Source: Escherichia coli (lineage in GTDB: Bacteria > Pseudomonadota > Gammaproteobacteria > Enterobacterales > Enterobacteriaceae). Taken from it: DNA of 64,000 bases. The translations under genes were made by a program, and so were the position numbers. How positions within the stretch are numbered: position 1 is the first letter of the stretch; each line of letters opens with the position of its first letter. Positions 4,527-57,721 of this stretch are shown here, in pieces. The notes under the pieces were generated by a model, which saw nothing but the letters and a program-made list of their open reading frames with translations, searched no databases and was not told the origin of the DNA. The stretch is taken from the NCBI RefSeq assembly GCF_003334815.1, contig NZ_QOWO01000001.1. One strand, 5' to 3'.

Positions 4527-4710
4527 TAACAATGCCGGACAGGAGTACTATCAGGCATTCGTTTTATACGATCGGTTAATGTTTCAGGAAAGCTCTTCGC
4601 ATATCTTGGGGAAAGTAAATGTAATACGCTGTTCTTAATTGTTCAGTGCTCACCCCCCAGAGTATAGCTCATTCCATTATTCAACTTAGCTCCATATAAA
4701 GGGACAGATA

Positions 4711-5838: not shown

Positions 5839-5852
5839 TTTCAGCGGTTTCG

Positions 5853-5879
5853 AATTCTGCAGACAGTGTCTGCAGAATC
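5853..5879. terminator. Fourth copy of the same palindrome, just after the yhcG stop and before the nanQ stop; probable bidirectional hairpin
   Basis: attctgcagacagtgtctgcagaat is a perfect 13-bp-arm palindrome between convergent genes. Confidence 0.5.
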
Positions 5880-5897
5880 TTTAAAACGAACTAAGTT

Positions 5898-7230
<1,333 letters not shown>

Positions 7231-7234
<4 letters not shown>

Positions 7235-7920: not shown

Positions 7921-7967
7921 ACATCTTCCCTTAGCGAAAGGCCCGGTACATAGACCGGGCAACAGGA

Positions 7968-9458: not shown

Positions 9459-9566
9459 TGTGAGTCTCCCGCGGTGGGCGATGCCCACACGCTTTGGTAT
9501 GAAAATTGTAGGGTACAGATGCGTTTATTTCCCCTCACCCGGTAGGGGCGAGCGAGGGGAAACAAC

Positions 9567-10460: not shown

Positions 10461-10495
10461 AAATACCTCTGAAGTGATGCTTGTCTGATAAATGA

Positions 10496-10518
10496 TATAC
10501 CTTTATACCTGTTATACC
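10496..10518 (-). promoter_or_regulatory. NanR operator: three GGTATA hexamer repeats in the nanA promoter
   Basis: Plus strand reads TATACC at 10496-10501, 10504-10509 and 10513-10518 (GGTATA on the nanA strand); matches the published Nan box. Confidence 0.7.
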
Positions 10519-10581
10519 AGATCAATTAAGCAACACCCCATACAGAAAGCTTATAATGCGATCTGCTTCACTAAAGTGGCA

Positions 10582-11373
10582 TTATTTCTTTTTGTTGGTG
10601 GTCTGACCGAAAGCGTGCCAGGTAGCAGAGACGCTGTTGAGATGCGATTGCAACGCACGATCGGCTTCGTCAGGATCATGACGGCGGATCGCATCAACGA
10701 TCGCAATATGCTGTTGATAACTAACGTTGTTATGTTCGTGCAGTGCCTGATCGGTAACCGTTGGGCGTGCGGCAATAAGCCAGTCGAGCAGGGCAACGTG
10801 GATCGCCATGAAGATTGGGTTACCGGGGATCTCCGCCAGCACGCGGTGGAAATCAACGTCTGAACGAATGAATGCCGCGTTGTTATCCAGCGACTGACTG
10901 TTGATTTCCAGTGCTTTTGCCAGCAAATCGATTTGCTCATCGGTGGCATGTTCAGCCGCATAGCGCACCAGACTGGATTCAAAGAACAGACGTAATTGTT
11001 CGAAATGGGCAATCCCACCGGGATGAGAAAGGAAATCTTTCGCCATGCCGGAAAGCTCACCGATGATAGTGTCCGCAGAAGGACGCGAGACGCGAGCGCG
11101 TTCGCCGTTGTTTATTTGCACCAGACCTTTGCGTTTTAACGCTGCCAGCGCTTCACGCACCGAAGGACGCCCGACGTTAAAGAACGCCATCAGTTCGCGT
11201 TCAGACGGTAATTGTTCACCTTCTCCAAATTCACGACGGCGGATCATCTGTTCCAGCTCTTCTTCCACCATTTCGGAGAGTTTTTTACGCGCCAGCGGGC
11301 GGCTACGCAAGTTGCGACCAATTGCAGGTGAAGAATCTTCGGTTTGCGAATCAAATGCGTTCATAAGGCCCAT
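10582..11373 (-). CDS. nanR: GntR/FadR-family repressor of the sialic acid regulon
   Basis: ORF track 263 aa; recognised NanR sequence. Confidence 0.9.
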
Positions 11374-11752
11374 TCTGTAAGGTCAGTGTGATTAACATCA
11401 TCAGTGACATCCTATCACAGGATTGAAAGTAGGGGAAAATGGCAGGGTTTTCTCTTTGTGCCTCATCATTACCATAATTAACGGAATAATTAACTATTGC
11501 GAAAAATTAATGTAACGCAGATAAAAACATCCCGTTTGAATTATTTATAAGACTATTCACGAGCATTATGAATATTATGAATGTGTTCTTACAAAATAAT
11601 CATAAGCGCATATTTTTTAATGAAAAATCACCTCACCTACAATTAAAAACACGACATCCGCACCATAAATAGCCTTGCAAAAAATATAACATCGTTGTTT
11701 TCAATCTGCCGTTTATGGGATTGACCGTTTTCTTTTGACACGGAGTTCAACA

Positions 11753-28956: not shown

Positions 28957-29190
28957 GCTGCCGGATGCGGCGTGAACGCCCTATCCAGCCTACGGTTATG
29001 TTCCGGTTTGTAGGCCTGATAAGACGCACAGCGTCGCATCAGGCAACGGCTGTCGGATGCGGCGTAAACGCCTTATCCGACCTACGGTTATGTTCCGTTT
29101 GTAGGCCTGATAAGACGCACAGCGTCGCATCAGGCAACGGCTGCCGGATGCGGCGTGAACGCCCTATCCGATCTACGGTTATGTTCTGGC
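28957..29190. repeat. REP/BIME array: three tandem copies of a ~78-bp unit built from REP palindromes
   Basis: gccggatgcggcgtgaacgccctatcc...tgtaggcctgataagacgcacagcgtcgcatcaggca repeated three times with point differences. Confidence 0.9.
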
Positions 29191-38175: not shown

Positions 38176-40116
38176 TTAAACCGAGTATCTTTGTGAATAT
38201 TTTTTCACGTTAGTATCAAGTGGCTGTGAGGACGCGAAAAAATCCCCTTGCCCGCCTGTAACACCGCGCTGAATCAGGGTCTGCCACTCGCTTCGCGAAC
38301 GCACGCCGGTGGCGTAAACCTGGGTGCTGGTCCCGGAGCAGGCTTCCACCAGGCTTTGAACCAGCAGCTGGTTCTCCGTTCGCTTCTCAATGTTTCTGAC
38401 CAGCCCCGGATGGAGCTTGAGTAACTCAACATTAAGTTCTTTGATCCAACTGGTACTTACCAGCGTCAAACCAGCCTGGTTGACGGCTACCCGTACCCCT
38501 AAAGCATTCACTAAACGAATAACAGGTTGTAAACGACTGATATGTTGACCTACATCGGCCTCTGCAAGTTCAATAATTATGCGTTTTCGTTGTGATTTTT
38601 CACATTGCATTAACGTATCGCGCAGCCAACGCTGAAAACGCGGGCGAATCAGCGACTCAACGGTAACCTGAATCGCCAGATTTTCCTCTGGCCAGTAACG
38701 CAATAGTGGAATAAGACGGCTGATTTGCAGACGGTCATACTCTTCCGATAAGCCAAACTGCAAGACCATCGGCATATACTCCGCCGAGCTAACCTCTTCA
38801 TTACCATCGAAGATGCGGCACATGAGTTCGCGATGATGAACCTGACCTTCGCGAGTAACCGCCGGTTTTTGATAAAGGCGCGGGCCGCCGCGACTGAGCA
38901 TTTGCTCGATAAGCGTACGCCAGCGAACATTACCGCGTCCTTTTTCAGGCAACGAGTCATCGTAAATAGCCCAGCTATTGCCGCCCTGCAATCCCGCATT
39001 ACGCGTGGCAGACTCTGCATGTTCCATTACCTGCTCGGTATCCTGACCACTACGCCAGGCGCAGATACCAATGTGGATCATATCGTCGCGATCGAGCATT
39101 TTATTGTTCGGCAAGGTATCAACGGCTTTGATTAACTGACCGGCGATGCTCTCTGCCTCTTTTAACGTCCGGTGCGGTAACAGCGCAGCAAAATCACTGC
39201 GGTGGTAACGCGCCAGCAGTGCGCCAGGGTAGCGCATCATAAATGTCGACAGCAGATTCGTCAGAGTGAAGAACTGTTCTTCAACCTGGCTGTGCCCCCA
39301 GGTATCGCTCAACATATTGAAATCCGGCAGACGAATCATCATCACGATCCCGTGGGTACCTACTTTCTCCTGATCTTCCAGTAACGTTGCTAACTGATTA
39401 TCGAAAAAGAGTCGGTTATTGAGGCCGGTTTTCACGTCCTGGGCGGCATAAGAGCGGATCAGCGTATCAAGACGGCTGTGTTGTTCGCGTGCGTTCTGAA
39501 TTTCACGAAGCAGCGTATCCAGCGCACTGCTGGTTCTGGGCGGCCATTCATAGATGGTTCCCAACACATTAGAGCCACGCTCACCGTTTAAGATACGAGT
39601 AGCCCGGGTTTCCAGCAATTCTTGCCCGGCAAGTTGCCGTTGTAACCAGCGTACCGCCAGGAAGAGCATAACAATGATAAAGCCAATCGCCCCCGTGAGC
39701 GGCGCGGTGGTCATCAACGAATGGAAATAGTTGCCCATCGGATCCTGATAAACCAGACGCAACGACATCCCCGGATGCTTTATCAACGGAACGCTCAGTT
39801 CGCGAAACAGATCGCTGGAGCCAACTGGACGATAACTACCATTTCTGGCCAGGGTATAAACCTGTTTATCACCATGGAGCAGGTCTACACGAACGATATC
39901 TGCCGACATCATTAATTCGGTAATTTGTGGCCTTAATACGCTGAAGTCATTCGACACAAGGTGGGTATCAATCGCCGTCGCCACCGCCTGAACGCGATGA
40001 CTAAACTTATACTGAATGGCGTTGTAGAAACTTAGCGAACAGCCCAGCAAAGTCACAAAAATTGTTAACCCGGTGAGCAGCGTAACAAAGGCCGAAAATT
40101 TCGTCGTTAATCTCAT
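38176..40116 (-). CDS. csrD: Degenerate GGDEF-EAL regulator of CsrB/CsrC decay
   Basis: ORF track 646 aa; recognised CsrD (YhdA). Confidence 0.93.
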   Translation of the reverse strand: MRLTTKFSAFVTLLTGLTIFVTLLGCSLSFYNAIQYKFSHRVQAVATAIDTHLVSNDFSVLRPQITELMMSADIVRVDLLHGDKQVYTLARNGSYRPVGSSDLFRELSVPLIKHPGMSLRLVYQDPMGNYFHSLMTTAPLTGAIGFIIVMLFLAVRWLQRQLAGQELLETRATRILNGERGSNVLGTIYEWPPRTSSALDTLLREIQNAREQHSRLDTLIRSYAAQDVKTGLNNRLFFDNQLATLLEDQEKVGTHGIVMMIRLPDFNMLSDTWGHSQVEEQFFTLTNLLSTFMMRYPGALLARYHRSDFAALLPHRTLKEAESIAGQLIKAVDTLPNNKMLDRDDMIHIGICAWRSGQDTEQVMEHAESATRNAGLQGGNSWAIYDDSLPEKGRGNVRWRTLIEQMLSRGGPRLYQKPAVTREGQVHHRELMCRIFDGNEEVSSAEYMPMVLQFGLSEEYDRLQISRLIPLLRYWPEENLAIQVTVESLIRPRFQRWLRDTLMQCEKSQRKRIIIELAEADVGQHISRLQPVIRLVNALGVRVAVNQAGLTLVSTSWIKELNVELLKLHPGLVRNIEKRTENQLLVQSLVEACSGTSTQVYATGVRSRSEWQTLIQRGVTGGQGDFFASSQPLDTNVKKYSQRYSV

Positions 40117-40267: not shown

Positions 40268-41242
40268 ATGCAGGCGTTACTTTTAGAACAGCAGGACGGC
40301 AAAACTCTCGCATCAGTACAGACTCTGGACGAAAGTCGCCTGCCGGAGGGCGATGTCACGGTCGATGTTCACTGGTCGAGCCTGAACTATAAAGATGCGC
40401 TGGCGATTACCGGTAAGGGAAAAATCATCCGTAATTTTCCGATGATTCCTGGGATCGATTTTGCCGGAACTGTACGCACCAGCGAAGATCCGCGTTTTCA
40501 TGCCGGTCAGGAGGTGTTACTCACTGGCTGGGGCGTTGGTGAAAACCACTGGGGTGGGCTGGCGGAGCAGGCGCGAGTGAAAGGTGACTGGCTGGTTGCC
40601 ATGCCGCAAGGGCTGGACGCGCGTAAAGCAATGATTATCGGTACTGCCGGTTTTACCGCCATGCTGTGTGTGATGGCGCTGGAAGATGCCGGTGTTCGCC
40701 CGCAGGACGGGGAGATTGTCGTGACGGGTGCCAGTGGTGGCGTCGGCAGTACCGCCGTGGCGCTGCTGCATAAGTTGGGTTATCAGGTCGTTGCCGTTTC
40801 CGGTCGCGAAAGTACCCATGAATATCTGAAAAGTTTAGGTGCTAGCCGTGTTCTCCCTCGTGATGAGTTTGCCGAATCCCGTCCTCTGGAAAAACAAGTC
40901 TGGGCTGGGGCAATTGACACCGTTGGCGACAAAGTGCTGGCAAAAGTGCTGGCGCAAATGAATTACGGCGGCTGCGTGGCGGCCTGTGGTCTGGCGGGTG
41001 GTTTTACTCTGCCAACCACGGTCATGCCATTTATTCTGCGTAATGTCCGTTTGCAAGGGGTGGATTCAGTAATGACGCCACCAGAACGCCGCGCACAAGC
41101 CTGGCAGCGACTGGTCGCCGATTTACCGGAATCATTCTATACCCAGGCGGCAAAAGAGATATCTCTGTCAGAGGCACCGAACTTTGCCGAGGCCATCATT
41201 AATAACCAGATCCAGGGTCGCACGCTGGTGAAGGTTAACTAA
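40268..41242 (+). CDS. acuI: NADPH-dependent acrylyl-CoA reductase (MDR superfamily)
   Basis: ORF track 324 aa; recognised YhdH. Confidence 0.93.
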   Translation: MQALLLEQQDGKTLASVQTLDESRLPEGDVTVDVHWSSLNYKDALAITGKGKIIRNFPMIPGIDFAGTVRTSEDPRFHAGQEVLLTGWGVGENHWGGLAEQARVKGDWLVAMPQGLDARKAMIIGTAGFTAMLCVMALEDAGVRPQDGEIVVTGASGGVGSTAVALLHKLGYQVVAVSGRESTHEYLKSLGASRVLPRDEFAESRPLEKQVWAGAIDTVGDKVLAKVLAQMNYGGCVAACGLAGGFTLPTTVMPFILRNVRLQGVDSVMTPPERRAQAWQRLVADLPESFYTQAAKEISLSEAPNFAEAIINNQIQGRTLVKVN

Positions 41243-48054: not shown

Positions 48055-48351
48055 ATGTTCGAACAACGCGTAAATTCTGACGTACTGACCGTTTCTACCG
48101 TTAACTCTCAGGATCAGGTAACCCAAAAACCCCTGCGTGACTCGGTTAAACAGGCACTGAAGAACTATTTTGCTCAACTGAATGGTCAGGATGTGAATGA
48201 CCTCTATGAGCTGGTACTGGCTGAAGTAGAACAGCCCCTGTTGGACATGGTGATGCAATACACCCGTGGTAACCAGACCCGTGCTGCGCTGATGATGGGC
48301 ATCAACCGTGGTACGCTGCGTAAAAAATTGAAAAAATACGGCATGAACTAA
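48055..48351 (+). CDS. fis: Nucleoid-associated protein Fis
   Basis: ORF track 98 aa; exact Fis sequence ([15 protein letters not shown]...KKYGMN). Confidence 0.98.
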
Positions 48352-48363
48352 AGTCAAGCTGTA

Positions 48364-48373
48364 ACGGCATGAA
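48364..48373. repeat. Left copy of the 10-bp direct repeat ACGGCATGAA (candidate attL core)
   Basis: Exact match to 57684-57693; 13 bp after the fis stop. Confidence 0.55.
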
Positions 48374-48375
48374 AT

Positions 48376-48408
48376 TAAAGGGGCTATTTCAGCCCCTTTA
48401 CTTTTTGT
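48376..48408 (+). terminator. Rho-independent terminator serving fis; lies inside the island boundary
   Basis: aaaggggctatttcagcccctttactttttgtt, located between the left direct repeat and the tape-measure stop. Confidence 0.75.
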
Positions 48409-48428
48409 TGCAACCGTACTGACAACCC

Positions 48429-50702
48429 TTATGGTGTTTGCGCGCCATCTATCATCATGCTTCGCTGCCTTACTGCTTGTTGCTGTCGTAGTTGCTGTAT
48501 CACCTTCCGGGCTAATGCATCTTCATTCATACCAGGTTCTGCCTTCACGCTGATGTGGTACTGGTCGTTGCTATGCACCGTAGTGCCACCAGAGCGGTTG
48601 GCCAGTGCAGGTGACGGCAGGGCAGCACCAGAGGCAGTGGTTGCTGCTGGCTGCTGTACATCGTCGCGGAATGGTGCGGTAAAGAAATCTTTGGTTTTCT
48701 GCCACGCACCACCAGCAACATCAGACACGGCGTTTTTAAACTCCAGTGCCTTGTTGGTCAGGTTGCCAATGTTGTCAGAAACCCAAATGATCTTATCAAT
48801 CAGGAACGTGATCGGTGCGGTCACAAGCTCGATGCCAGCCGCCAGGGTCTTACCGAACGTCATCCCCATTTTACCGGCCTTATCCAGTTCCTCGCCGCTG
48901 TATTTGACCGGTTCGGTCAGTGACGTGAACCAGTTGAAAGCCGTCTTAACCGCAGCGCCCACGCCATCAATGACGGGCTTCAATGGCCCCATGCGCTCAT
49001 ACAGGCGATGCAGGGCATCGCTAAGCGGTTCCAGCCCGGATTTGATACCTTCACCCACGCCACCAAAAAAAGCCTTCACACCAGCCCAATGGCGGTAAAT
49101 CTGATAACCTGCCAGCGCCAGGCCAGCTACGGCAGCACCAACGCCAGTGGAAATGAACGCCGCACCGATGGCGCGCACGCCGGTAGCCACCGCAGGCAGG
49201 CCACGAGTGCTGGCCAGAACGGCGGATGCGTTCATGCGGGCAAACAGGCTGGACACGTTCAGCAATCCGCCTTTCAGGAACGTGAACGCAAAGCCAGCGG
49301 CGAACGTCGCCACACGCAGTGCCACCAGTGCACTGGAACCAATAACCACTGCTTTGGTCACGGTAGGGTATTCGCGCGCCAGTTCGGCAACCTTGCCGAT
49401 AACCGGGCCAACGGTAGCCAGAACGCCGTTGAATGCTGGCAGCAGCACTGTGCCGATCGTGACGCCCAGGTTAGACACACGGTTGTTGAAAATCTTAAGC
49501 TGCGCCGACGTTTTGGCGGTGGCTGCCTCATATTCAGCCTGCATAGAACCGGCATATTTGGTCTTGTCTTTGACCATATCCAGATTCTTTTGGTACGTAT
49601 CAAGCTGTGTCAGCATTGGTGCGATAGCGCCAATCGATTCCTTACCAAACAGTTGCGAAAGCGTTGCCGCCTGCATGTGTTTTGGCAGCTTGCTGATCTT
49701 GGACAGGATGACGCGGATTGTTTCATCGGCGTTCAGTTGCATTGATTTTGCAACCTGCTTGGATGTGAAGCCAAGCTGTTTAAACGCTTCACGCTGTGAC
49801 TTCGTGGCGGATGCGCCAGCGGTCAGGGATAGCAGCAGGTTTTTAATACCGGTGGCCGCAATCTCATTCTGCACGCCCATACCGCGCAGCGTTGCACCCA
49901 TCGCAGCGATAGAACCGGAAGCTGCACCAGCGACGCTGCCAAGTGGCCCGATGCGCTGCGTGATTTCCAGGATGTCTTTGGCTGATGCGGCGGTGTTGTT
50001 GCCCAGGTAGTTGATCTTGTCGGCCAGAACGTTCATCTGGTCCTGCGTCATCCCGAAGGCGGCGCGCATCTCTGCCATTGCCTGGCCTGCCTGGTCGGCG
50101 CTGACGTCAAAAGCCACACCCATTTTGATGGCCGATTCAGCAAACTTGGTTAGTTCGCTGGTGGCGATGCCTGATTGAGCACCAGCGGCAACAATCTTGC
50201 CGATTTCGTTGGCTGCCATCGGCATTTTGGTTGACATATCCTGGATAGCCTGGCCCATCTTAACCAGGCCGTCAGGGGTTTCGAAGTTGGCAACCTTGCG
50301 GATATCTGCCAGCGTATCTTCAAAATCCATAGCCTGTTTGATCGGTACAGCTACCGTTGCGCCAAGTGCGACAGTCCCCAGGATTCCTTCTTTGTAGCCT
50401 TGACGCTTCGCCAGGTTGCGTTCGCGGGCATCCTCCACGCGTTTCAGGCGTTCGGTGGCAGAACGAAGGCGTTCAACCTGCCCGACAACCGTTTGATAGC
50501 GGTCCTTCATGCGGGAGAATATCGCGCTATCCTGGCCATAACGCTTCATTGCTTCATTTAACTGGCGCTGTTCGCGCGACAGCTTAGAGATTGCGCTACC
50601 AATCTCGACGGTATTTTTCTTTACAGTTCCAAATGCACCACGAAGGCTGCCGGAAACGGCCCCACCAATCGTGATTGTTGCATTTAACTTCTTGTTGGCC
50701 AT
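48429..50702 (-). CDS. Phage tail tape measure protein (TP901-family core-like)
   Basis: ORF track 757 aa; N-terminal coiled coil, Ala/Gly-rich core (GNNTAASAKDILEITQRIGPLGSVAGAASGS...), hydrophobic C-terminal segments; called on recognised family features, not a search. Confidence 0.75.
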   Translation of the reverse strand: MANKKLNATITIGGAVSGSLRGAFGTVKKNTVEIGSAISKLSREQRQLNEAMKRYGQDSAIFSRMKDRYQTVVGQVERLRSATERLKRVEDARERNLAKRQGYKEGILGTVALGATVAVPIKQAMDFEDTLADIRKVANFETPDGLVKMGQAIQDMSTKMPMAANEIGKIVAAGAQSGIATSELTKFAESAIKMGVAFDVSADQAGQAMAEMRAAFGMTQDQMNVLADKINYLGNNTAASAKDILEITQRIGPLGSVAGAASGSIAAMGATLRGMGVQNEIAATGIKNLLLSLTAGASATKSQREAFKQLGFTSKQVAKSMQLNADETIRVILSKISKLPKHMQAATLSQLFGKESIGAIAPMLTQLDTYQKNLDMVKDKTKYAGSMQAEYEAATAKTSAQLKIFNNRVSNLGVTIGTVLLPAFNGVLATVGPVIGKVAELAREYPTVTKAVVIGSSALVALRVATFAAGFAFTFLKGGLLNVSSLFARMNASAVLASTRGLPAVATGVRAIGAAFISTGVGAAVAGLALAGYQIYRHWAGVKAFFGGVGEGIKSGLEPLSDALHRLYERMGPLKPVIDGVGAAVKTAFNWFTSLTEPVKYSGEELDKAGKMGMTFGKTLAAGIELVTAPITFLIDKIIWVSDNIGNLTNKALEFKNAVSDVAGGAWQKTKDFFTAPFRDDVQQPAATTASGAALPSPALANRSGGTTVHSNDQYHISVKAEPGMNEDALARKVIQQLRQQQAVRQRSMMIDGAQTP

Positions 50703-50723
50703 AATAATTGTGCTCTCAAGGAA

Positions 50724-50930
50724 TTAATTAAGTAAATTTTCTGCAAGGGTGTGTTCACCGATTGCCCGCAAGGCGGCAGCGGCCAGTTGCAGGGCGCATT
50801 CGGTGCGGTAGTCTCGCTGTTTCTGCATTTCCTCCGCTGTGTTGCACGCCAGAACTTTTGGCAGGACCATATCCACCAGTTCAGGCCAGGGGTTTGTTCC
50901 TTCCGGTTTTGTGTGAATACGGTCCAGCAT
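50724..50930 (-). CDS. Small hypothetical protein immediately upstream of the tape measure gene (possible tail assembly chaperone)
   Basis: ORF track 68 aa; same strand and tight spacing within the operon; no recognisable motif. Confidence 0.4.
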   Translation of the reverse strand: MLDRIHTKPEGTNPWPELVDMVLPKVLACNTAEEMQKQRDYRTECALQLAAAALRAIGEHTLAENLLN

Positions 50931-50939
50931 GGTGCCCCC

Positions 50940-51257
50940 TTATGCACTCCGTACCAGGATAGCGCCGCGCTTCACCGCCTGGCGTTTGGCCCGTTCACCG
51001 GAACTGATGCGGCTGGATGGTTGCCACTTCGTGCGTCCCAGGGCGGATGCGTGGCTTTCCGCTTCGTCACGCATGATGCGGCCCGCTTCATCGGTCATGT
51101 GTTCGAATGCGTTTAAACGGTTGCGAAGGCTTGCCAGCAGGTCGGCTGCTTCGTAGCTGATAGGGTTTTTCTCTGAAATGGTTTGGAAACGCTTTGTTTC
51201 GCTAAGGATCAAACGCGCTTCTTCTTTCATTGATTCGTACAGGTCATGTTTTTTCAT
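50940..51257 (-). CDS. Hypothetical protein (possible tail assembly chaperone); start uncertain
   Basis: ORF track 149 aa (50940..51389); preferred start at the internal MKKHDLYESMKEE (ATG at 51257, ~104 aa) because the upstream extension is low-complexity. Confidence 0.4.
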   Translation of the reverse strand: MKKHDLYESMKEEARLILSETKRFQTISEKNPISYEAADLLASLRNRLNAFEHMTDEAGRIMRDEAESHASALGRTKWQPSSRISSGERAKRQAVKRGAILVRSA

Positions 51258-51471
51258 AGTATTGGCCGCTAACAATAGTTGTTGATGATTAAGTGAGTGC
51301 GCGCTTTTAGGTGACAGGTGCGGCGCAACCGGTGTGGAATTAGTGGTGGTTTTGACCGTCCAGGATGACCACCAACCTGGTTCCAGCATCCATCGTCTGA
51401 GGAACGATGAAGGTTAAATTTGGCCGGTTATTTGGGGCACAGGGAACCGGTGAAACCTGTATTCTTGGCCA

Positions 51472-51636
51472 TTATTTGCCGTTCAGCCCGCTACTCAGAA
51501 ACTTTTCAATCACCTGGCTGCGTGAAGGGCGGATGCCTGTTCTGCGTTCCAGTTTGGCTTGCTCTCTTTCGACCTGGCGCACCAGGTCAGGGGCGAGGCG
51601 TACCGTTACGTGCTGGCGTGTTTCTTGTCGTTTCAT
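51472..51636 (-). CDS. Ribbon-helix-helix (CopG/Arc-like) DNA-binding protein, 54 aa; absent from the ORF track (below length cutoff)
   Basis: Hand-translated: MKRQETRQHVTVRLAPDLVRQVEREQAKLERRTGIRPSRSQVIEKFLSSGLNGK; beta-strand then two helices typical of RHH; starts 3 nt after the upstream gene stop. Confidence 0.55.
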   Translation of the reverse strand: MKRQETRQHVTVRLAPDLVRQVEREQAKLERRTGIRPSRSQVIEKFLSSGLNGK

Positions 51637-51639
51637 GGC

Positions 51640-51960
51640 TTAGTACCTGTTCATCCAGCTTTCGCGCTTCTGTTTCGGGCGCTGCTCGCGGTAGTGACTG
51701 CGCACCAGGGAAGCGAGGTAATTCACGGCGCGTTCAATCTGGTACTGCTTAAGCTCCGGGTAAGCCTTGCGAATCCATTTTTCAGCAGCGTCATCGCTGT
51801 AGATGAATCCTGACCAGCCAACCGGCTGCACTACGATGCGCGGTGTGTTTTCATCACCGTGGCGCACATACATGGCCACACCTTCGATAGCTGCCAGGAT
51901 TTCACCCGGCAGGGCAGCGCGCTCCGCTGCCGCTTTTTTGCTGCCCCACCACATGATCAA
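51640..51960 (-). CDS. Hypothetical protein, ~105 aa, translationally coupled to the downstream RHH gene
   Basis: ORF track 106 aa; TTG or ATG start overlapping the stop of the upstream 294-aa gene. Confidence 0.45.
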   Translation of the reverse strand: MIMWWGSKKAAAERAALPGEILAAIEGVAMYVRHGDENTPRIVVQPVGWSGFIYSDDAAEKWIRKAYPELKQYQIERAVNYLASLVRSHYREQRPKQKRESWMNRY

Positions 51961-52841
51961 GCCTTCCAGAACATAGTTGAGTCAGGCACCAGTGCGGATG
52001 CGTTCACCCACACAACGATTTCAACGGCACCATTCAGCACGCGGCGGGCGGTGACGCGGATTTCATCATCCAGGGCAACGGCTGCATTGCCGAAAGCGCC
52101 AATGATTGTGCTGGAAGTCTGGCCGCTGATTTCAGCGCGTACACCGTAGGCACGCAGAACGCCGTCTTGCAGTTCCAGGCCGGTGCAATCACCGCCAACA
52201 ATGGCTTTAACTTCATCAAAGCGCAGGTTTTTGGCTGCAATCTTCTGCGCCACTGCGGTGAATGACGGGCTGGCCAGCGTTTCCGCTGCGGTTTCCAGGT
52301 GGTTCAGCAGTACGAAATCAGCCAGGTCAGCAATTCCGCGTTCAATGGCGGTGTTGACCACTTCCAGCGTGGTATCGTCTGCGAAGTCGTGTTTCATCTG
52401 CTTGCGGCTAAGGGTGTAGCCCACGCCGTAAGCCGGTGCGTTGTTGTGGTTGAACGCTGATACCAGGTAAGGCAGGCCGCTCATGGTGATTTCTTCGCCG
52501 TCAGCCACTTTGGCGAACGCACCAGGGCGAACGACAACGAAGCGGTCAGCCACTTCGCGGCCAGTCGTTGCGCCGGTGTTGCCAGTCGGAGGCGTGGTCA
52601 TCGGGCCAGGGATGCGGATGATTTCAGCGCCTGCCTGTGCCACCAGTGAACGTTCAGCCAGAACAGCGTTGAAGGTGGTCTGCTTGCCGCCTTTCGGGGT
52701 CAGCACGTCATTCATGGACAGGTAGCGAACTGCTGCAGGTTCCACAGGGATGAATTGAGTAATGTCACCGTTGCCATCAGTGCGAATGTGGCCGCCCTGG
52801 TGGTTCAACGCGTCGTTGATAAGTTGAGATAAAACGTTCAT
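51957..52841 (-). CDS. Phage structural-like protein, 294 aa (major tail- or capsid-like; unassigned)
   Basis: ORF track 322 aa; start moved to MNVLSQLINDAL (ATG at 52841), which has a GGAG RBS 8 nt upstream; first gene of the minus-strand operon ending in the tape measure. Confidence 0.4.
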   Translation of the reverse strand: MNVLSQLINDALNHQGGHIRTDGNGDITQFIPVEPAAVRYLSMNDVLTPKGGKQTTFNAVLAERSLVAQAGAEIIRIPGPMTTPPTGNTGATTGREVADRFVVVRPGAFAKVADGEEITMSGLPYLVSAFNHNNAPAYGVGYTLSRKQMKHDFADDTTLEVVNTAIERGIADLADFVLLNHLETAAETLASPSFTAVAQKIAAKNLRFDEVKAIVGGDCTGLELQDGVLRAYGVRAEISGQTSSTIIGAFGNAAVALDDEIRVTARRVLNGAVEIVVWVNASALVPDSTMFWKA

Positions 52842-53229
52842 TAAAAATGCTCCGGTTGTTGTGCAATAAATCGTCTGGAATGACTTAAAGATATACAGTA
52901 ACCAGGCCGAACACAATAGCCACAATGTGAGCTTTTTAATGTAAAATCAGTAACTTATAACCATGAATACTTGCAAATAACCAGGCATAATCCGGCGTAA
53001 TCGATATTTACACATCTTTACAATTCAGCGTGTGTAAAACGTGTTCGCTTTATTTTGCAATCTCGCAAGTATGGTTCCAGTGCTTTGATAGGATTCACAT
53101 AAATGATTGATTTACTTGACGTAATCATAAAGTGAGTTTTGTAGGGGCACGCACAACGCGAATTACGCGGGACCAATGCCCCCGCAGGCTGTACCCCCCT
53201 CGGAAGTACCTTGACTTTTTTGGCAGCAG

Positions 53230-53540
53230 ATGGCGATGACACCTAATGTCACCATGACGGCGTTATGTTGGAAAGGTGTCATTAGGTGTCATAGCGGGAA
53301 ACACGCTGATTATTAAAGAAAAATACAAACAAGATAATGTAATGAATGACACCTGTGACACCATGACACCCATTTCTATAAAGTATAACGACCACTGTTA
53401 CATTATCACAGTGGTCGTTATTTTCTTTAAAAATGCTGTCATAGGTGTCATAGGTGTCATTAGTAATGTCGCAACCCTTGCGGGTTATGGCTTGAGAACA
53501 ATGACACCTGCCATGACACCTTATAAATTAATGACACCTA
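53230..53540. repeat. Iteron array: at least 10 perfect copies of the octamer ATGACACC/GGTGTCAT in both orientations, with a central 9-bp-arm palindrome; probable replication origin
   Basis: Perfect copies start at 53236, 53275, 53285, 53346, 53363, 53444, 53453, 53501, 53513 and 53531; variants at 53246, 53355 and 53435; palindrome gaccactgt-N9-acagtggtc at 53390-53416; located 3' of the primase gene. Confidence 0.7.
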
Positions 53541-53607
53541 GGCGTCACTTTGAAAATAAAAAAAGCCCCGGCATTCGCCAGGGTAATGGGCAACAACTGT
53601 TGTGATG

Positions 53608-53832
53608 TTATGATCGGATGAACGGCAAGATTTCAGCGGAATCCACTACCCTTATGCGGTAGCTGCATAGCAGGTTTTCACCCAACTTGGCCAGTTCCTG
53701 CTGCACCTCTGGCAGCCTATTGCGAGCATGGTCTACCGCTTCCTGTTCAGTGGCGAAACCCTCCATAATTTCGGTTTCGGTGTAGGTGCCGTGTTCCGGG
53801 TCAAAAGCAATGATATATGCGCGATAACTCAT
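53608..53832 (-). CDS. Small hypothetical protein between the primase gene and the iteron origin
   Basis: ORF track 74 aa; GAGG RBS 6 nt upstream of the ATG. Confidence 0.5.
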   Translation of the reverse strand: MSYRAYIIAFDPEHGTYTETEIMEGFATEQEAVDHARNRLPEVQQELAKLGENLLCSYRIRVVDSAEILPFIRS

Positions 53833-53841
53833 AGTATTACC

Positions 53842-55530
53842 TCAAAACTGGTGGTTAGGCCCATCAAAATAGCGATGGTCTTGCTGTCCAAAAACTTTCG
53901 GTGGCATTAGGTAAAAACGCCCTTTACTTGTTCTACGTGCATCCCTTCCTGTCAGTTTTCGCAGAATGTTACCGCACTGCGTTGCCTGGGATTTTGTTGG
54001 CCGATCCTGCCCAATAGACAACAGAACATCCGTTGCAGTCATTTCTATATATGCAGCCAGGCGATCACTGTTCCAATCAAAACGCGCCAATATCATTTCT
54101 TCAATCGGGTCAGTTTGCCCGTGCTGTTCGTTCACGACTTCCAGCATGGCTTCTTCATCACGGTCCAGCCACCAGCGTTCACCTGCTTCAAACCAGGAAA
54201 GAACTTCGGCCCATAATTGTTGTGTGTCTATGCCATGCTCGTAGTTAACGGCAGTTACAGGAATGGTCCACCAGCGCACGTTCCCGGTGTCATCCGCCAG
54301 GAAGTGTTTCGGGTTCACTGACGCAAAAAACACGGTGCGGCGCTGGTACTTCGATTCAAGCCGGTCATAAGGGCGGCGCAGGTCATCACGGTCCTGGCTG
54401 ATAAATGCTTTGAGCTTGGCAATATCCGCCTTGCGAAACGTCGCATCCAATTCGCCTAGCTCAACAAGCCAGTGACTAATTGCGCTGGCCACGCTGTCTT
54501 TATTGCCGGGGTCAATAGTTGCTCCCACCTTAACCAGGTTGCGATTGTCAGGGGGCAGAAGCGCTTTAAACCATGCTGTTTTACCCAGTGACTGCTCGCC
54601 CTGGAAAACCAGCACGCCTTTGGACCAGAAACCCGCTTCTAAGTAAGCAGCCGCCACGGCAGACAGCAACCAACGACGCACCAGCATGGCCAGCAGATCG
54701 CGACTGTAGTCATCTGGCGTGCTGATAGTATTCAGCAGGTCTGCAAATCGGCTTCGTCCATCCCATTCACGTTGATTGATGAAATCCCTGACAGGATTAT
54801 AAGTATTGCGCACAGCGATAGTTTTGATATGACCTTCAATATTACTCATTGGTAACCGGTTCAGTGCGGCGAGGCTTAAAATTTCACTCACAGCGCAGTT
54901 ATCGCGAGCATCTGAACCGCCACTAACGCCAGGTACTAAAACCTCAACGTCCTTGCTAATCTCATTATATTTTGCAGAAATGCTGTAGTTATCTAATAGA
55001 CGTTCAACATTAGGGCGTGTGTTTAAAGGCTGGCCATTGCTTCCAATATTTGGCCAGGTTGTCATTAATACAGGAGCCATATCGTGAATGTCTTTTACAG
55101 TTGCTGCGGCGGTTGCTCGTTCTTCTTTGCGCAGCATGCCCACCAGGCTTTCACCGCGTAGGGCGGCGTCTCTAAGCCTGTCCATGTTCCATTTTTCCGG
55201 TTCACGGTCAGTAATGCCTTTAAATAAACGGGCTTCCTTAACTCCAGCCACTGCCAGCTTGTCAGCAATAGTGCTGATTTGAAGTTGCTTAATATCACCA
55301 GCCAGATATACCCGCGCAGACCGGCGACCATCGTCGATAATTCGTAGATTATCTAAATCATCCAGTTGTCTTGGCCCAAGGTAGACAGGAGGAGTAGTGT
55401 CACCGGCAACTTGTTTACCCATTCCTTCTTCCCAGCCCTTGGCATGGCTCCAAGCGTCAGAACCGGCAAAAATAATTGCTTCCGTAAAAGGGTCTTTAGG
55501 TAATAGCTTAACGTTAGGCGCGTTTCTCAT
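53842..55530 (-). CDS. Satellite-type primase / replication initiator with P-loop NTPase domain
   Basis: ORF track 562 aa; Walker A motif GEQSLGKTAW; sits between alpA and the iterons as in P4 alpha / PICI pri-rep arrangements. Confidence 0.65.
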   Translation of the reverse strand: MRNAPNVKLLPKDPFTEAIIFAGSDAWSHAKGWEEGMGKQVAGDTTPPVYLGPRQLDDLDNLRIIDDGRRSARVYLAGDIKQLQISTIADKLAVAGVKEARLFKGITDREPEKWNMDRLRDAALRGESLVGMLRKEERATAAATVKDIHDMAPVLMTTWPNIGSNGQPLNTRPNVERLLDNYSISAKYNEISKDVEVLVPGVSGGSDARDNCAVSEILSLAALNRLPMSNIEGHIKTIAVRNTYNPVRDFINQREWDGRSRFADLLNTISTPDDYSRDLLAMLVRRWLLSAVAAAYLEAGFWSKGVLVFQGEQSLGKTAWFKALLPPDNRNLVKVGATIDPGNKDSVASAISHWLVELGELDATFRKADIAKLKAFISQDRDDLRRPYDRLESKYQRRTVFFASVNPKHFLADDTGNVRWWTIPVTAVNYEHGIDTQQLWAEVLSWFEAGERWWLDRDEEAMLEVVNEQHGQTDPIEEMILARFDWNSDRLAAYIEMTATDVLLSIGQDRPTKSQATQCGNILRKLTGRDARRTSKGRFYLMPPKVFGQQDHRYFDGPNHQF

Positions 55531-55795
55531 ATCGCACCCCGCGTTTTAACTCCAGATACATCGCCCATGATTCAGAATCGCTGATGCGAAACGGCACCAG
55601 GCTATCAGCCATAGCGGCGTGACGTGAAACAATAGTCCACGGGCGGTTTACACCTTCGCGAATGCATGCTTGCAACAATAATTGTGCTGCCGCCATACGC
55701 TGGGCGGTAAGTTCGCCAACGGTTAACTGGCGCTGTGGGTTACGCAACAGGCTGTTATAGCGACTGATAGCCTGATTTACGGTTGTTTTCTTCAT
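55514..55795 (-). CDS. Small hypothetical protein directly upstream of the primase gene, overlapping its start
   Basis: ORF track 93 aa; GAGGTGG RBS; 17-nt overlap with the primase start. Confidence 0.5.
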   Translation of the reverse strand: MKKTTVNQAISRYNSLLRNPQRQLTVGELTAQRMAAAQLLLQACIREGVNRPWTIVSRHAAMADSLVPFRISDSESWAMYLELKRGVRYEKRA

Positions 55796-55803
55796 AAGCC
55801 ACC

Positions 55804-55983
55804 TCAGCGCTGTACTGGCTGGCGGCTTTCAAGCCACGCCATAACATCTTTGCGCCGCCAGGCCACGCGTTTTGGCCCTAATTTTATGCAATTAGGAAAC
55901 GTGCCAGCCTGGATATAGCGCCAGATAGTCATGCGGGATAATGTTGTTAGTGTTGTGACTTGCTTAGCAGTCAGTAATTCCAT
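55804..55983 (-). CDS. alpA: AlpA-family phage transcriptional regulator (MerR-like HTH), 59 aa; absent from the ORF track (below length cutoff)
   Basis: Hand-translated: MELLTAKQVTTLTTLSRMTIWRYIQAGTFPNCIKLGPKRVAWRRKDVMAWLESRQPVQR; classic AlpA signature; GAGGG RBS. Confidence 0.7.
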   Translation of the reverse strand: MELLTAKQVTTLTTLSRMTIWRYIQAGTFPNCIKLGPKRVAWRRKDVMAWLESRQPVQR

Positions 55984-56277
55984 CTTACGGCCCTCAAAAC
56001 ATGGCCGGTGGATATGTGGTCTGTAATGATTTATGATTATGTTGCGTTAACAAAGAACGCGACCATTACAGCCTTCACCGGCTTTTTGGTATTAAGGGGT
56101 TCGGTTTTCTGTTTGGCGACGTGAACCGATCCCCGCCTTATTCAAGCCCTCAGTTCTGCTGGGGGCTTTTTATTACTACATGACAATAATACTCAAATTG
56201 TATCAGCAGTAAATACCCTTTAAATTCATAAACTTAACTGCAAATAACGCTACATAACTCTATATAATCATCAATTT

Positions 56278-57513
56278 TTAATTATCTGATTTTAAAAGGT
56301 TTATTTTTTCTAAATATTTTATCCATTTGTCCAAGGCTAACCGTTTTTCCGGGATGTACTGGCTACGGTTGTACACCGCCATCACTCCTGGCATTGAGTG
56401 GCCCAGCAACTGTTCAACCACATGCGGGGCTATCCCCAAGTTATTTAGACTGGTGGCAAAAGTGCGGCGCAGGTCATGCAACGTCCACGGCGTTGAATGC
56501 TCTAATCGTCTGTATAAGATACGCCCCCACTGGCTGACAGCTTCGGGTTTCTTCATTTCACCAAGCAGCATTCCGCTATCAAGATGATTTTGGCGTAGCT
56601 GTAAAATAAATGGCTGTATAGATTCAGGCACGGGTCTGATGATTTTCTCCCCACCCTTGCTATGTTCTCGCGGAACTGTCCAAATCCATTCTTTCACGTT
56701 CCATTCCGACCATGTCGAAAGACGAATTTCTTGTGTTCTTGCACCAAACACTATTAGCAATTTTAAAAGCGCGGTGTAGTAAGGTAGAAACGCATATTCG
56801 CTTTTTAGCGCATTCCAAAGGCCACTAAGTTCTTCAGAAGTTAAAACACGATCACGTTTTGCCTGCTTTCTTCCAACATCAGTAACTTTGATATCCTCCA
56901 GCGCATCACTGTAAACATCGTGCAGCCTGCGGTTGTGAATCAACGCCTGCTTGCAGTTACCTAATATGTAGCCGCTTGCTACCGGCGCGACTTTTTTGAT
57001 TCTGCTAAATGTCTCCATCCATCTTGCTTTAGAGCACTGTTCAAGTGGCAATTCGCCGATGAAAGGATAAATATGTCTTTCGAATTGGCGTCTATGCCTT
57101 TCAAAGTTGACCCGGTTTTCCGCCGCGTACTCATTAATCCAGCGTTCCAATGCTTCCCTGATAGTGACAGGTTTCATGGTTTTTGCTGACTCTTGGTCAA
57201 ACTGGTCTTTAGGATCTAGATTATGAGCAAGCCACCGTTTGCATTGGTCGCGTTTCACCCTCGCCTCAGCAAGAGATAAGGCAGGATACTTGCCCAGCAC
57301 TAGCGTCAAAGTATTGGCGCTTTTATGCTTATTCTTATAACGGAACAACCATTGGATGTTATTGGCCGGTCTCTTCTCGCCATCAAGGATTTTGCGCCTT
57401 GATGGTGTAACGCGAACAGAAAGGCTGCCACCGTCAGCAACATCAAAAGGTTTTTCGATGACTTTGCGGGTTAACGCACGCAATTGAACATCTGAGAGTT
57501 TATTTTCGGCCAT
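56278..57513 (-). CDS. int: Tyrosine recombinase, P4-type integrase family
   Basis: ORF track 435 aa; start taken at MAENKLSDVQLRAL (ATG at 57513, 411 aa); P4-integrase-like N-terminus (DGGSLSVRVTPSRRK) and C-terminal catalytic motifs (HDLRRTF...LGHS...VYNR...Y). Confidence 0.85.
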   Translation of the reverse strand: MAENKLSDVQLRALTRKVIEKPFDVADGGSLSVRVTPSRRKILDGEKRPANNIQWLFRYKNKHKSANTLTLVLGKYPALSLAEARVKRDQCKRWLAHNLDPKDQFDQESAKTMKPVTIREALERWINEYAAENRVNFERHRRQFERHIYPFIGELPLEQCSKARWMETFSRIKKVAPVASGYILGNCKQALIHNRRLHDVYSDALEDIKVTDVGRKQAKRDRVLTSEELSGLWNALKSEYAFLPYYTALLKLLIVFGARTQEIRLSTWSEWNVKEWIWTVPREHSKGGEKIIRPVPESIQPFILQLRQNHLDSGMLLGEMKKPEAVSQWGRILYRRLEHSTPWTLHDLRRTFATSLNNLGIAPHVVEQLLGHSMPGVMAVYNRSQYIPEKRLALDKWIKYLEKINLLKSDN

Positions 57514-57683
57514 AGAGTTAATGACAACCTTTTTGACAACTGTATGCAGGGAGTAACTGATAACTGATGATACAATGCGAGCCAATAAAAAATAAATATC
57601 TCTTTCCGCATCAATTATTTATGATGAATACAAATTATCTAGAGTGATAATAAATTACGTATAATGACTCTGTATTTTACAAT

Positions 57684-57693
57684 ACGGCATGAA
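57684..57693. repeat. Right copy of the 10-bp direct repeat ACGGCATGAA (candidate attR core)
   Basis: Exact match to 48364-48373; ~170 bp beyond the integrase start. Confidence 0.55.
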
Positions 57694-57721
57694 CTAATTC
57701 AGGTTAGCTAAATGCTTGATT

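What the first reader, a model, noticed from the sequence alone, without database searches (positions are those of the whole stretch)
48364..57693. Satellite-like integrative island between fis and yhdJ, bounded by a 10-bp direct repeat
fis and yhdJ are adjacent in the E. coli K-12 reference as I know it, yet here about 9.3 kb separates them. The insert carries a P4-type tyrosine integrase (56278-57513), an AlpA-like regulator (55804-55983), a primase/replication gene (53842-55530) and an iteron origin (53230-53540), all co-oriented. An exact 10-bp direct repeat ACGGCATGAA sits at both ends (48364-48373 and 57684-57693), which is what site-specific integration leaves behind. Intact ends argue for a discrete mobile unit rather than a decayed prophage fragment.
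Basis: partly seen in the sequence, partly recalled or inferred. Interest (0 to 1): 0.75.

Follow-up and report, generated by a model that had tools for sequence, protein, structure and literature searches.

The report
Phage satellite island inserted at fis
The 9.3-kb insert after fis is an intact phage satellite of an already-described class (fis PICIs) that unusually carries the DNA-packaging site and a tail tape-measure gene of a rare group of E. coli phages (Jilinvirus), which points to its likely helper.

Summary
The insertion is real, but the boundaries need correcting. The true repeat is 17 bp (AATACGGCATGAACTAA) at 48335-48351, covering the last fis codons and the stop, and at 57681-57697. 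K-12 has one copy, and the insert is 9,346 bp.

The int, AlpA, VapE-type replicase and iteron-origin calls all hold. This att site and element class are already published: "fis PICIs" (thousands mapped) and PICMI-like elements.

- A 73-bp non-coding block (53148-53220) is 97-99% identical to the cos region of Jilinvirus myophages, whose homologous genes are only 69-76% identical.
- A satellite-specific HK97-fold capsid protein lies at 51957-52841.
- A full-length tail tape-measure gene (48429-50702) is about 59% identical to the Jilinvirus one and under purifying selection.

Close relatives exist as ~9-kb circular plasmids without an integrase.

The best reading is a cos-type satellite of Jilinviruses. 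The tape measure probably goes into chimeric tails, as shown recently for Vibrio PLEs. No part of the life cycle has been tested.

Verdict: a new variant of a known kind, of moderate interest.

The parts
48335..48351 (+). attL core (17 bp, AATACGGCATGAACTAA). It is the last 5 codons plus the stop codon of fis.
   Evidence: Exact repeat of 57681-57697. K-12 identity runs through 48351. It contains the published fis-PICI identity block TACGGCATGAACTAA (PMC10111431).
48364..48373 (+). Not a boundary.
   Evidence: Present in L002 and L020, absent in the related island L019.
48376..48400 (+). Island-borne terminator hairpin that replaces the native fis terminator. It probably also ends the minus-strand late operon.
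   Evidence: Terminator scan: 10-pair stem followed by a T-run. Its position mimics the native fis downstream region in K-12.
48429..50702 (-). Tail tape-measure protein, 757 aa, full length.
   Evidence: phrog_28 E=2.7e-129 and TIGR01760 E=5e-71. It is 58-60% aa identical over its full length to Jilinvirus TMPs. dN/dS is 0.04-0.37 among satellite alleles and 0.25 against Bas97.
50724..50930 (-). o68, a 68-aa protein of unknown function that travels with the TMP.
   Evidence: Present next to the TMP in E. coli islands and plasmids, with no homologue in the TMP-less Serratia islands. No hit in phage records.
50940..51257 (-). o105, a conserved 105-aa protein with a basic C-terminus, function unknown. 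RefSeq annotates a longer 149-aa form reaching 51389.
   Evidence: 94% identical to the plasmid homologue and 41% to the Serratia homologue. No PHROG, NCBIfam, PADLOC or PDB hit.
51472..51636 (-). o54, a conserved 54-aa protein. A ribbon-helix-helix DNA-binding fold is my impression from the sequence and was not tested.
   Evidence: 72% identical to the Serratia homologue. PDB hits are noise.
51640..51954 (-). o104, a conserved 104-aa protein that directly follows the capsid-like gene. Function unknown.
51957..52841 (-). HK97-fold major-capsid-like protein, 294 aa, satellite-specific.
53148..53220 (-). Jilinvirus cos block. The putative cohesive-end core GGGGCATTGGTCC is at 53182-53170 on the minus strand.
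   Evidence: 97-98.6% identical to the non-coding stretch just upstream of terS in Bas97, ep3 and ECO1230-10, and 93.8% in PT1. The ECOO78 record has the 13-mer at both ends, and the Arya record starts 4 nt before it. ORF 53018-53242 over it is spurious.
53236..53538 (.). Replication origin: 10 GGTGTCAT iterons in both orientations around an AT-rich segment and an inverted repeat.
   Evidence: 10 of the 15 sites in the 64-kb window lie here. Bas97 has no such cluster.
53566..53583 (-). Terminator closing the alpA-replicase operon.
53608..53832 (-). o74b, a conserved 74-aa protein downstream of the replicase.
   Evidence: 47% identical to the plasmid homologue and 27% to the Serratia homologue.
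53842..55530 (-). Replication protein, 562 aa. It has a VapE-like helicase domain but no Toprim or PriCT domain.
   Evidence: PF05272 at residues 252-470, E=6e-48. phrog_2249 E=1e-82. Residues 159-556 are 65% identical to the C-terminus of the Bas97 primase.
55514..55795 (-). o93, a conserved small protein between alpA and the replicase.
   Evidence: Homologous to the Serratia 98-aa protein (E=1.5e-10), which in turn matches the plasmid 77-aa protein.
55804..55983 (-). AlpA-family excision and transcription regulator, 59 aa.
   Evidence: PF05930 E=3.9e-13. phrog_66.
56278..57513 (-). Tyrosine integrase, 411 aa, with P4-type architecture.
   Evidence: PF13356 Arm-DNA-bind_3 plus PF00589. phrog_1 E=6e-52.
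57681..57697 (+). attR core (17 bp).

Best explanation
The island is a phage satellite of the published 'fis PICI' type, and its helper is most likely a Jilinvirus, a ~41-kb myophage of the ep3 / ECO1230-10 / Bas97 group.

Shown by sequence:
- It is inserted by site-specific recombination at a 17-bp core overlapping the fis stop codon. It regenerates the fis 3' end and supplies a new terminator.
- It has the PICI layout: int, alpA, a small ORF, a VapE replicase, an iteron origin, then a late module.
- It carries the helper's cos site, a capsid-like gene of its own, and a tape-measure gene homologous to the helper's.

Inferred life cycle:
1. An incoming Jilinvirus switches on alpA. These phages behave as virulent and are not resident in these E. 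coli genomes.
2. Int plus AlpA excise a 9,346-bp circle.
3. The VapE protein replicates the circle from the iterons.
4. The helper terminase cuts at the borrowed cos site and packages the satellite. This could be a tetramer (37.4 kb, 88-92% of a helper genome) in a helper-sized head, or a monomer in a smaller head shaped by the satellite capsid protein.
5. The satellite tape measure replaces the helper's inside otherwise helper-built tails.

Sibling elements with the same late module and cos site, but no integrase, persist as ~9-kb plasmids.

Confidence by step: satellite of the fis-PICI type about 0.9; Jilinvirus as helper about 0.7; tape measure built into chimeric tails about 0.4. The overall figure of 0.7 refers to the first two together.
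For: - Empty site in K-12 and exact 17-bp duplication.
- Int, AlpA and VapE domains and the iteron cluster.
- The class and att site are published, and excision of one Klebsiella member has been shown experimentally (PMC10111431; PMC10803314).
- The cos block is 97-99% identical to Jilinvirus phages, while the homologous coding DNA is only 69-76% identical. Among 50,697 phage records it is found only in Jilinviruses. Two phage records end inside it. It sits upstream of the head-like gene in the same orientation as in the phage.
- The TMP is 59% and the replicase C-terminus 65% identical to Bas97.
- The TMP ORF is intact in 5 of the 6 satellite copies examined (the sixth, L019, is cut by an IS), with dN/dS of 0.04-0.37. 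All share the phage's first 12 residues.
- The 294-aa protein has the HK97 capsid fold.
- The unit length stays at 8.7-9.6 kb although replication and integration modules are swapped. In 34 of 102 homologue clusters the longest contig is 8.9-9.6 kb.
- Precedent for a satellite TMP being built into chimeric tails: PLEs (10.1101/2025.01.29.635557).
Against: - Nothing in the life cycle has been observed. There is no excision, replication or transduction data for this element.
- The helper assignment rests on sequence identity of one 73-bp block plus two homologous genes.
- The cohesive-end position is inferred from how two GenBank records were linearised.
- No Jilinvirus prophage occurs in any of 5,426 complete E. 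coli genomes, so co-occurrence could not be tested.
- The TMP-less Serratia relatives show that the TMP is dispensable for the family.
- Five late-module proteins have no assignable function.
Confidence: 0.7

Rival explanations
1. The tape-measure homologue is not a building block for satellite particles. Instead it is a decoy or dominant-negative that poisons helper tail assembly, making it an anti-phage (defence or interference) function of the island.
For: Satellites commonly interfere with their helpers. Tail-assembly interference systems occur in PICIs (PMC11364771). The central TMP region is highly variable between satellite alleles (20-46% aa identity), as expected in an arms race. The family can do without a TMP (Serratia islands).
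Against: The satellite needs tails too. The N-terminal 12 residues are identical to the phage's, the length is near-native (757-810 aa against 785), and purifying selection acts over the whole length. All of this fits a working tape measure. No PADLOC defence family matches any island protein. In PLEs the satellite TMP is structural.
Confidence: 0.15
2. The element is basically a small cryptic plasmid lineage that once picked up phage DNA (cos, TMP, primase). The window copy has been captured by a fis-specific int/alpA cassette. It is not mobilised by phage, and the phage-like parts are inert cargo.
For: Five complete circular plasmid records of 8.9-9.3 kb, plus a 17.4-kb dimer, have no integrase and are typed non-mobilizable. 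The plasmid replicase is a full-length homologue of the phage primase (61% identity).
Against: A non-coding 73-bp block held at 97-99% identity to the phages, while the genes drift to 69-76%, implies selection on a cis-acting site. The TMP and capsid genes are intact and under purifying selection. Unit length is conserved across module swaps. The int-alpA-replicase-late layout is the PICI signature.
Confidence: 0.08
3. It is a decayed Jilinvirus-like prophage that integrated at fis and lost most of its genome through deletions.
For: Three segments are homologous to Jilinvirus (TMP, primase C-terminus, cos). Some Jilinviruses carry int and cI genes.
Against: - Both att cores are intact.
- The island integrase is only about 25% identical to the Bas97 integrase, and AlpA has no counterpart in the phage.
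- Int points inward with alpA behind it, which is the satellite arrangement rather than the prophage one.
- The capsid-like gene and five other genes have no homologue in 50,697 phage records or in Bas97.
- The same ~9-kb unit recurs in E. coli, Salmonella and Proteus.
- The published survey found no prophages using the fis site.
Confidence: 0.03

Closest known systems
fis PICIs (Gram-negative phage-inducible chromosomal islands integrated in fis; Williams lab, NAR Genom Bioinform 2023, PMC10111431)
   Same: Same att site: the identity block TACGGCATGAACTAA lies at the fis terminus. Same integrase architecture, with alpA behind an inward-facing int. Same Integration / Replication / Late zone order. 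A capsid gene sits in the Late zone, and late genes are captured from helpers.
   Different: The paper's text and searchable supplements do not mention a tape measure. 'tape' and 'PhageMin' gave no hit in the supplements, one of which was truncated when stored. No Bro-zone gene is recognisable here. The element is smaller than the listed E. coli members (9.3 kb against 15-17 kb in PMC10803314 Suppl. Data 2). Integrase-less plasmid siblings are not described.
PICMI (phage-inducible chromosomal minimalist islands, Vibrionaceae; PMC10803314)
   Same: 17-bp direct repeats at the end of fis. An int / alpA / small ORF / prim backbone. The helper behaves as a virulent phage. Packaging as a concatemer is one of the two options that fit here.
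   Different: PICMIs average 6.7 kb and lack capsid-related genes. Their prim is defined by DUF3987 or DUF5906, whereas this one is VapE-like. The authors found 'complete' PICMIs only in Vibrio. This island has capsid-like and tape-measure genes.
PLE of Vibrio cholerae (chimeric tails; bioRxiv 10.1101/2025.01.29.635557)
   Same: The satellite encodes its own tape-measure protein homologous to the helper's. In PLEs it is selectively built into satellite virions and is needed for efficient transduction.
   Different: PLE TMPs are only about 20% identical to ICP1's, against 59% here. PLEs also encode a recognisable tail assembly chaperone and baseplate hub, and none is recognisable here. The backbone, att site, host and helper are all unrelated.
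SaPIbov5 and other cos-type SaPIs (PMC5052747, PMC8569155)
   Different: Gram-positive host and an unrelated backbone. Ccm is a homologue of its own helper's capsid protein, whereas the 294-aa protein has no detectable sequence similarity to the Jilinvirus head protein.
Satellite phage P4
   Same: It has the helper's cos site, a P4-type integrase, an AlpA-family regulator and a primase-helicase replicon. It can live either integrated or as a plasmid.
   Different: No sid, psu, delta or epsilon homologue was detected (no PHROG hits). The helper family is different. In this family the plasmid forms lack the integrase altogether.

Membership tests
fis PICI / Gram-negative PICI | Integrated at the fis 3' end, with an attL/attR identity block containing TACGGCATGAACTAA | tested here: met
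   17-bp core AATACGGCATGAACTAA at 48335-48351 and 57681-57697. K-12 has a single copy.
fis PICI / Gram-negative PICI | Tyrosine integrase facing inward, followed by an AlpA-family gene on the same strand | tested here: met
   Int matches PF13356 and PF00589. AlpA matches PF05930. Both are on the minus strand.
fis PICI / Gram-negative PICI | Primase/replicase gene with an origin of replication downstream | tested here: met
   VapE-like replicase. Ten iterons lie within 300 bp just downstream.
fis PICI / Gram-negative PICI | Bro-network gene zone between the integration and replication zones | tested here: inconclusive
   Only o93 (93 aa) lies there. It has no PHROG, NCBIfam or PDB hit. No Rfam C4 or isrK match.
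fis PICI / Gram-negative PICI | Lacks most phage structural and all lysis genes. The Late zone may hold a capsid gene and a packaging determinant. | tested here: met
   The only recognisable structural genes are the capsid-like gene and the TMP. A helper cos block is present. No lysis, portal or terminase gene.
fis PICI / Gram-negative PICI | Helper-phage-induced excision, replication and high-frequency transfer | not testable with these tools
   This needs infection experiments. Excision was shown only for a different member, Kpn47.16.fis.
PICMI | int, alpA and prim co-localised next to fis | tested here: met
PICMI | Primase carrying DUF3987 (PF13148) or DUF5906 (PF19263), as in the published model | tested here: not met
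   Pfam finds only VapE-like PF05272. Some plasmid siblings do carry DUF5906.
PICMI | Minimalist: about 6-7 kb with no capsid-related genes | tested here: not met
   9,346 bp, with an HK97-fold capsid-like gene and a TMP.
P4-like satellite | sid, psu, delta and epsilon morphogenetic or regulatory genes | tested here: not met
   No PHROG or NCBIfam hit for any late-module ORF other than the TMP.
cf-PICI (capsid-forming PICI) | Complete head and packaging set (terminase, portal, protease, capsid, connectors) | tested here: not met
   Only a capsid-like gene is present. There is no portal, protease or terminase.
PLE-type tail manipulation | Satellite-encoded TMP together with a tail assembly chaperone and baseplate hub | tested here: inconclusive
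   The TMP is present. No chaperone or hub is recognisable. o68 co-varies with the TMP but has no homologue or assignment.

The most novel reading that the evidence does not exclude
This would be a previously undescribed satellite lineage of the little-studied, virulent-behaving Jilinviruses. It would build partly 'home-made' virions from its own HK97-fold capsid protein and its own tape measure, on a helper-supplied portal, tail tube, sheath and baseplate. It would exist in two lifestyles sharing one late module and cos site: integrase-less ~9-kb plasmids and fis-integrated islands. If so, it would be the first PICI-type satellite, and the first in the Enterobacteriaceae, known to supply a tail component. 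It would extend the chimeric-tail strategy so far shown only for Vibrio PLEs.
Probability: 0.35. Interest if true: 0.7.

Novelty: new variant of a known kind. Interest (0 to 1): 0.5.

Why it matters
- The helper phages of most bioinformatically mapped PICIs are unknown. Here a borrowed cos site names a specific candidate helper genus that is available in culture (Bas97 of the BASEL collection, ep3, ECO1230-10), so the system is directly testable.
- If the tape measure is used, chimeric-tail assembly is not a peculiarity of Vibrio PLEs. It would be a recurrent satellite strategy.
- The plasmid siblings suggest that some small 'cryptic, non-mobilizable' enterobacterial plasmids are in fact phage-mobilised satellites. 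That matters for how plasmid mobility is scored.

Tried and rejected
- **Defence cargo:** no PADLOC family matches any island protein.
- **Immunity RNAs (C4/isrK) as in P4 and some PICIs:** no Rfam hit in the island.
- **ORF 53018-53242 as a gene:** rejected. Its 'protein' match to Bas97 is really the non-coding cos block.
- **Shared origin with the helper:** Bas97 has no GGTGTCAT cluster.
- **Helper co-residence:** Bas97 terL-portal has no match in 5,426 complete E. coli genomes even in the sensitive mode, so co-occurrence could not be measured.
- **Virome evidence of packaging:**
  - The 'Caudoviricetes' homologue P0030 turned out to be chromosomal.
  - The single IMG/VR hit is an isolate-genome prophage call.
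  - Contig L010 has no terminal overlap that would prove circularity.
- **Function of o104, o105, o54, o93 and o68:** no PHROG, NCBIfam, Pfam or PDB sequence hit. The o104 model has no significant fold match. The ubiquitin hits for o54 are treated as noise.
- **Promoter scan:** not above chance.
- **Prior listing of ~9-kb E. coli fis islands in the PMC10111431 supplement:** that file is truncated, so this could not be settled.
- **One literature search** on plasmid-form satellites failed for lack of a free slot.

Full report
**1. The observation**

The 10-mer ACGGCATGAA is present at both stated positions, but it occurs three times in the window: 48338, 48364 and 57684. Chance expectation is 0.21, and no shuffle out of 100 reached three.

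Extending each pair shows that the right-hand copy matches the copy at 48338, not the one at 48364. The exact shared sequence is the 17-mer AATACGGCATGAACTAA at 48335-48351 and 57681-57697. The left copy is the end of fis itself (…K-Y-G-M-N-stop).

K-12 MG1655 is identical to the window from the left through 48351 and from the right back to 57681. It therefore holds a single core copy, with fis and yhdJ 85 bp apart, and the insert is exactly 9,346 bp. It is present in some close relatives (L002, L020) and absent from another (L019), so it is not a boundary feature.

Just past the core, the island carries a terminator hairpin (48376-48400) at the position where K-12 has the native fis terminator. 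As a result fis stays complete and properly terminated.

Only 47 of 5,426 complete E. coli genomes carry at least 80% of this region. Sixty-six carry the late module in some variant, 65 on the chromosome and one on a plasmid.

**2. Anatomy**

All genes are on the minus strand. From attR inward:

| Feature | Coordinates | Evidence |
|---|---|---|
| Tyrosine integrase | 56278-57513 | Arm-DNA-bind_3 + Phage_integrase domains |
| AlpA regulator | 55804-55983 | PF05930 |
| o93, 93-aa ORF | 55514-55795 | Conserved, no family hit |
| Replication protein, 562 aa | 53842-55530 | VapE-like domain only; no Toprim/PriCT |
| o74b, 74-aa ORF, then a terminator | 53608-53832 | |
| Iteron origin | 53236-53538 | 10 of the window's 15 GGTGTCAT sites |
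| Six-gene late module | 48429-52841 | Ends in a 757-aa tail tape-measure protein (48429-50702; phrog_28 E=2.7e-129, TIGR01760 E=5e-71) |

**3. Link to a specific phage group**

The tape measure is 58-60% identical over its full length to the tape measures of ~41-kb enterobacterial myophages: ep3, ECO1230-10, ECOO78, Bas97/HeidiAbel and Salmonella PT1. These belong to the genus Jilinvirus.

Comparison with the whole Bas97 genome gives three homologous segments:
- the TMP gene, at 69-74% nucleotide identity;
- the 3' part of the primase gene, at 76% nucleotide and 65% amino-acid identity;
- a 73-bp non-coding block, window 53148-53220, at 97% identity to Bas97 40926-40998, immediately upstream of terS.

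Among 50,697 phage records, that block is found only in Jilinviruses. Identity is 98.6% in ep3 and ECO1230-10 and 93.8% in PT1.

The linear ECOO78 record has GGGGCATTGGTCC at both of its ends, and the Arya record begins 4 nt before that sequence. I infer that this is the cos site, with the cohesive-end core at window 53182-53170. A non-coding site conserved far better than the neighbouring genes, and lying upstream of the head-like gene in the same orientation as in the phage, is what a satellite needs in order to be cut and packaged by its helper's terminase.

The integrase is only about 25% identical to the Bas97 integrase. AlpA and all the other late genes have no counterpart in Bas97. The capsid-like protein and o68 have no hit in any phage record.

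**4. The wider family**

Homologues of the capsid-like protein fall in 102 clusters. In 34 of these the longest contig is 8.9-9.6 kb, the size of the whole element.

PLSDB holds five complete circular plasmids of 8.9-9.3 kb and a 17.4-kb dimer, from E. coli, Salmonella and Proteus. They carry the same late module at 88-96% nucleotide identity and, in most cases, the cos core. They also carry a full-length Toprim/VapE primase, which in L012 is 61% identical to the Bas97 primase over its whole length. They have no integrase or alpA.

Replication modules differ widely between members (26-62% amino-acid identity), yet unit length stays at 8.7-9.6 kb. The integrated form gains int and alpA but has a primase about 200 aa shorter. 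That pattern fits a packaging size constraint:
- Four units (37.4 kb) equal 88-92% of a Jilinvirus genome, while five units exceed it.
- One unit is 22-23% of a helper genome. By my own rough geometric estimate that is about the capacity of a T=3 head. This estimate is an inference, not a tool result.

Serratia has fis-integrated relatives with the same backbone and the same capsid-like / 105-aa / 54-aa / ~101-aa genes, but no tape measure. So the TMP (with o68) is a lineage-specific acquisition.

A sub-lineage in E. coli and Salmonella carries its own terS-like gene. In Salmonella a protease-fused homologue lies in an element embedded in a prophage capsid gene. That matches the published 'helper-embedded PICI' configuration.

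**5. Is the tape measure functional?**

Five of the six satellite copies examined have an intact TMP ORF (757-810 aa; Bas97 has 785). The sixth, L019, is interrupted by an IS21-family element. Evidence on the intact copies:
- Pairwise dN/dS is 0.04-0.19 between close alleles, 0.34-0.37 between the two allele classes, and 0.25 against Bas97.
- All copies start with MANKKLNATITI, exactly as the phage protein does.
- The gene is mosaic. The window allele's central region is 52-76% identical to Bas97 but only 20-46% identical to the other satellite allele class, while the C-terminal third is 93-100% identical among satellites. This indicates repeated exchange with phages.

These data argue against a decaying fragment. 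They do not show what the protein does.

**6. What is already known**

The fis terminus is a published satellite attachment site:
- PMC10111431 mapped 2,642 and later 3,565 'fis PICIs', with the consensus identity block TACGGCATGAACTAA. It cites experimental excision of a Klebsiella member, describes the Integration / Bro / Replication / Late layout, and proposes capture of late genes from helpers.
- PMC10803314 described Vibrio PICMIs with 17-bp repeats at the end of fis. It lists int-alpA-prim-fis elements in Enterobacterales, including E. coli ones of 15-17 kb, two of which have exactly this 17-mer.

Satellite-encoded tape measures have been reported only recently:
- All V. cholerae PLEs encode a TMP that is selectively built into satellite virions and is needed for efficient transduction (10.1101/2025.01.29.635557).
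- Mycobacterial EPIPs also carry one. Their authors state that TMPs are otherwise not present in satellites.

I found no paper describing a Jilinvirus satellite. PMC11990801 describes Jilinviruses as few, poorly characterised, O-antigen dependent, and virulent in behaviour despite a lysogeny module. In line with this, no complete E. coli genome matches the Bas97 terL-portal region.

**7. Interpretation**

The element is a fis-PICI-type satellite. I hold this with high confidence, about 0.9, from anatomy, att site and family context.

Its helper is most likely a Jilinvirus, at about 0.7. That rests on the cos block plus two homologous genes.

How it is packaged is open: a tetramer in a helper-sized head, or a monomer in a small head shaped by its own capsid protein.

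I consider the chimeric-tail reading the most likely use of the TMP, at about 0.4. A decoy or interference role is at about 0.15, and selectively near-neutral captured cargo takes most of the rest. No step of the life cycle has been observed.

**8. Verdict**

As an island at fis it is already explained by published work. The features that go beyond published descriptions are the Jilinvirus cos site naming a culturable helper, the full-length tape measure, and the integrase-less plasmid siblings. These make it a new variant of a known kind and a readily testable system.

Noticed in passing
L024 (IMGVR_UViG_2548876700_000015), 7038-14323: This contig holds the window island from 50724 through attR at 99.6% identity. 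It diverges 63 bp past the core into an HK97-type head and packaging module on the same strand: large terminase, portal, protease, major head and head closure. It looks like a tandem of two different fis satellites, the 9.3-kb TMP type followed by a cf-PICI-like element.
   Followed up: partly
L003 (E. coli 58-3, NZ_CP050036.1), locus 20550-23400: Here fis ends with a TGATAC-type att sequence, as in Citrobacter and Klebsiella. It is followed by a DUF6602 gene and IS1A, and yhdJ-yhdU-acrS-acrEF are missing. This is probably the remnant of another fis island plus an IS1-mediated deletion.
   Followed up: no
L019 (E. coli 98202, NZ_CP173557.1), locus 2632-7503: A sub-lineage of the fis island carries an extra terS-like gene (159 aa, annotated AbiEi-like in a Salmonella plasmid). 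In this copy the tape-measure gene is split by an IS21-family element (ISEc12).
   Followed up: partly
L015/L016 (Salmonella), locus 4859-13576: An int-bearing element carries a protease-fused homologue of the capsid-like protein. It is inserted inside the protease-capsid gene of a prophage with a lambda-type terminase and portal and a P2-type baseplate. This matches the published helper-embedded PICI configuration.
   Followed up: partly
window 53276-53605 (+) and 53018-53242 (-): RefSeq annotates the counterpart of 53276-53605 in the UPEC85 genome as a hypothetical protein. That ORF lies across the iteron origin. The 53018-53242 ORF lies across the cos block. Both are very probably not genes.
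   Followed up: yes
window 29013-29173 (-): Two adjacent copies of naRNA4 (RF02564, a REP-derived nucleoid-associated RNA). This is an ordinary E. coli feature and the only Rfam hit in the window.
   Followed up: no
L005 (Bas97) 38401-38850: A cluster of five GGTGACCA repeats lies upstream of the phage late-activator gene. It resembles the satellite iteron GGTGTCAT but is distinct from it, and its meaning is unknown.
   Followed up: no
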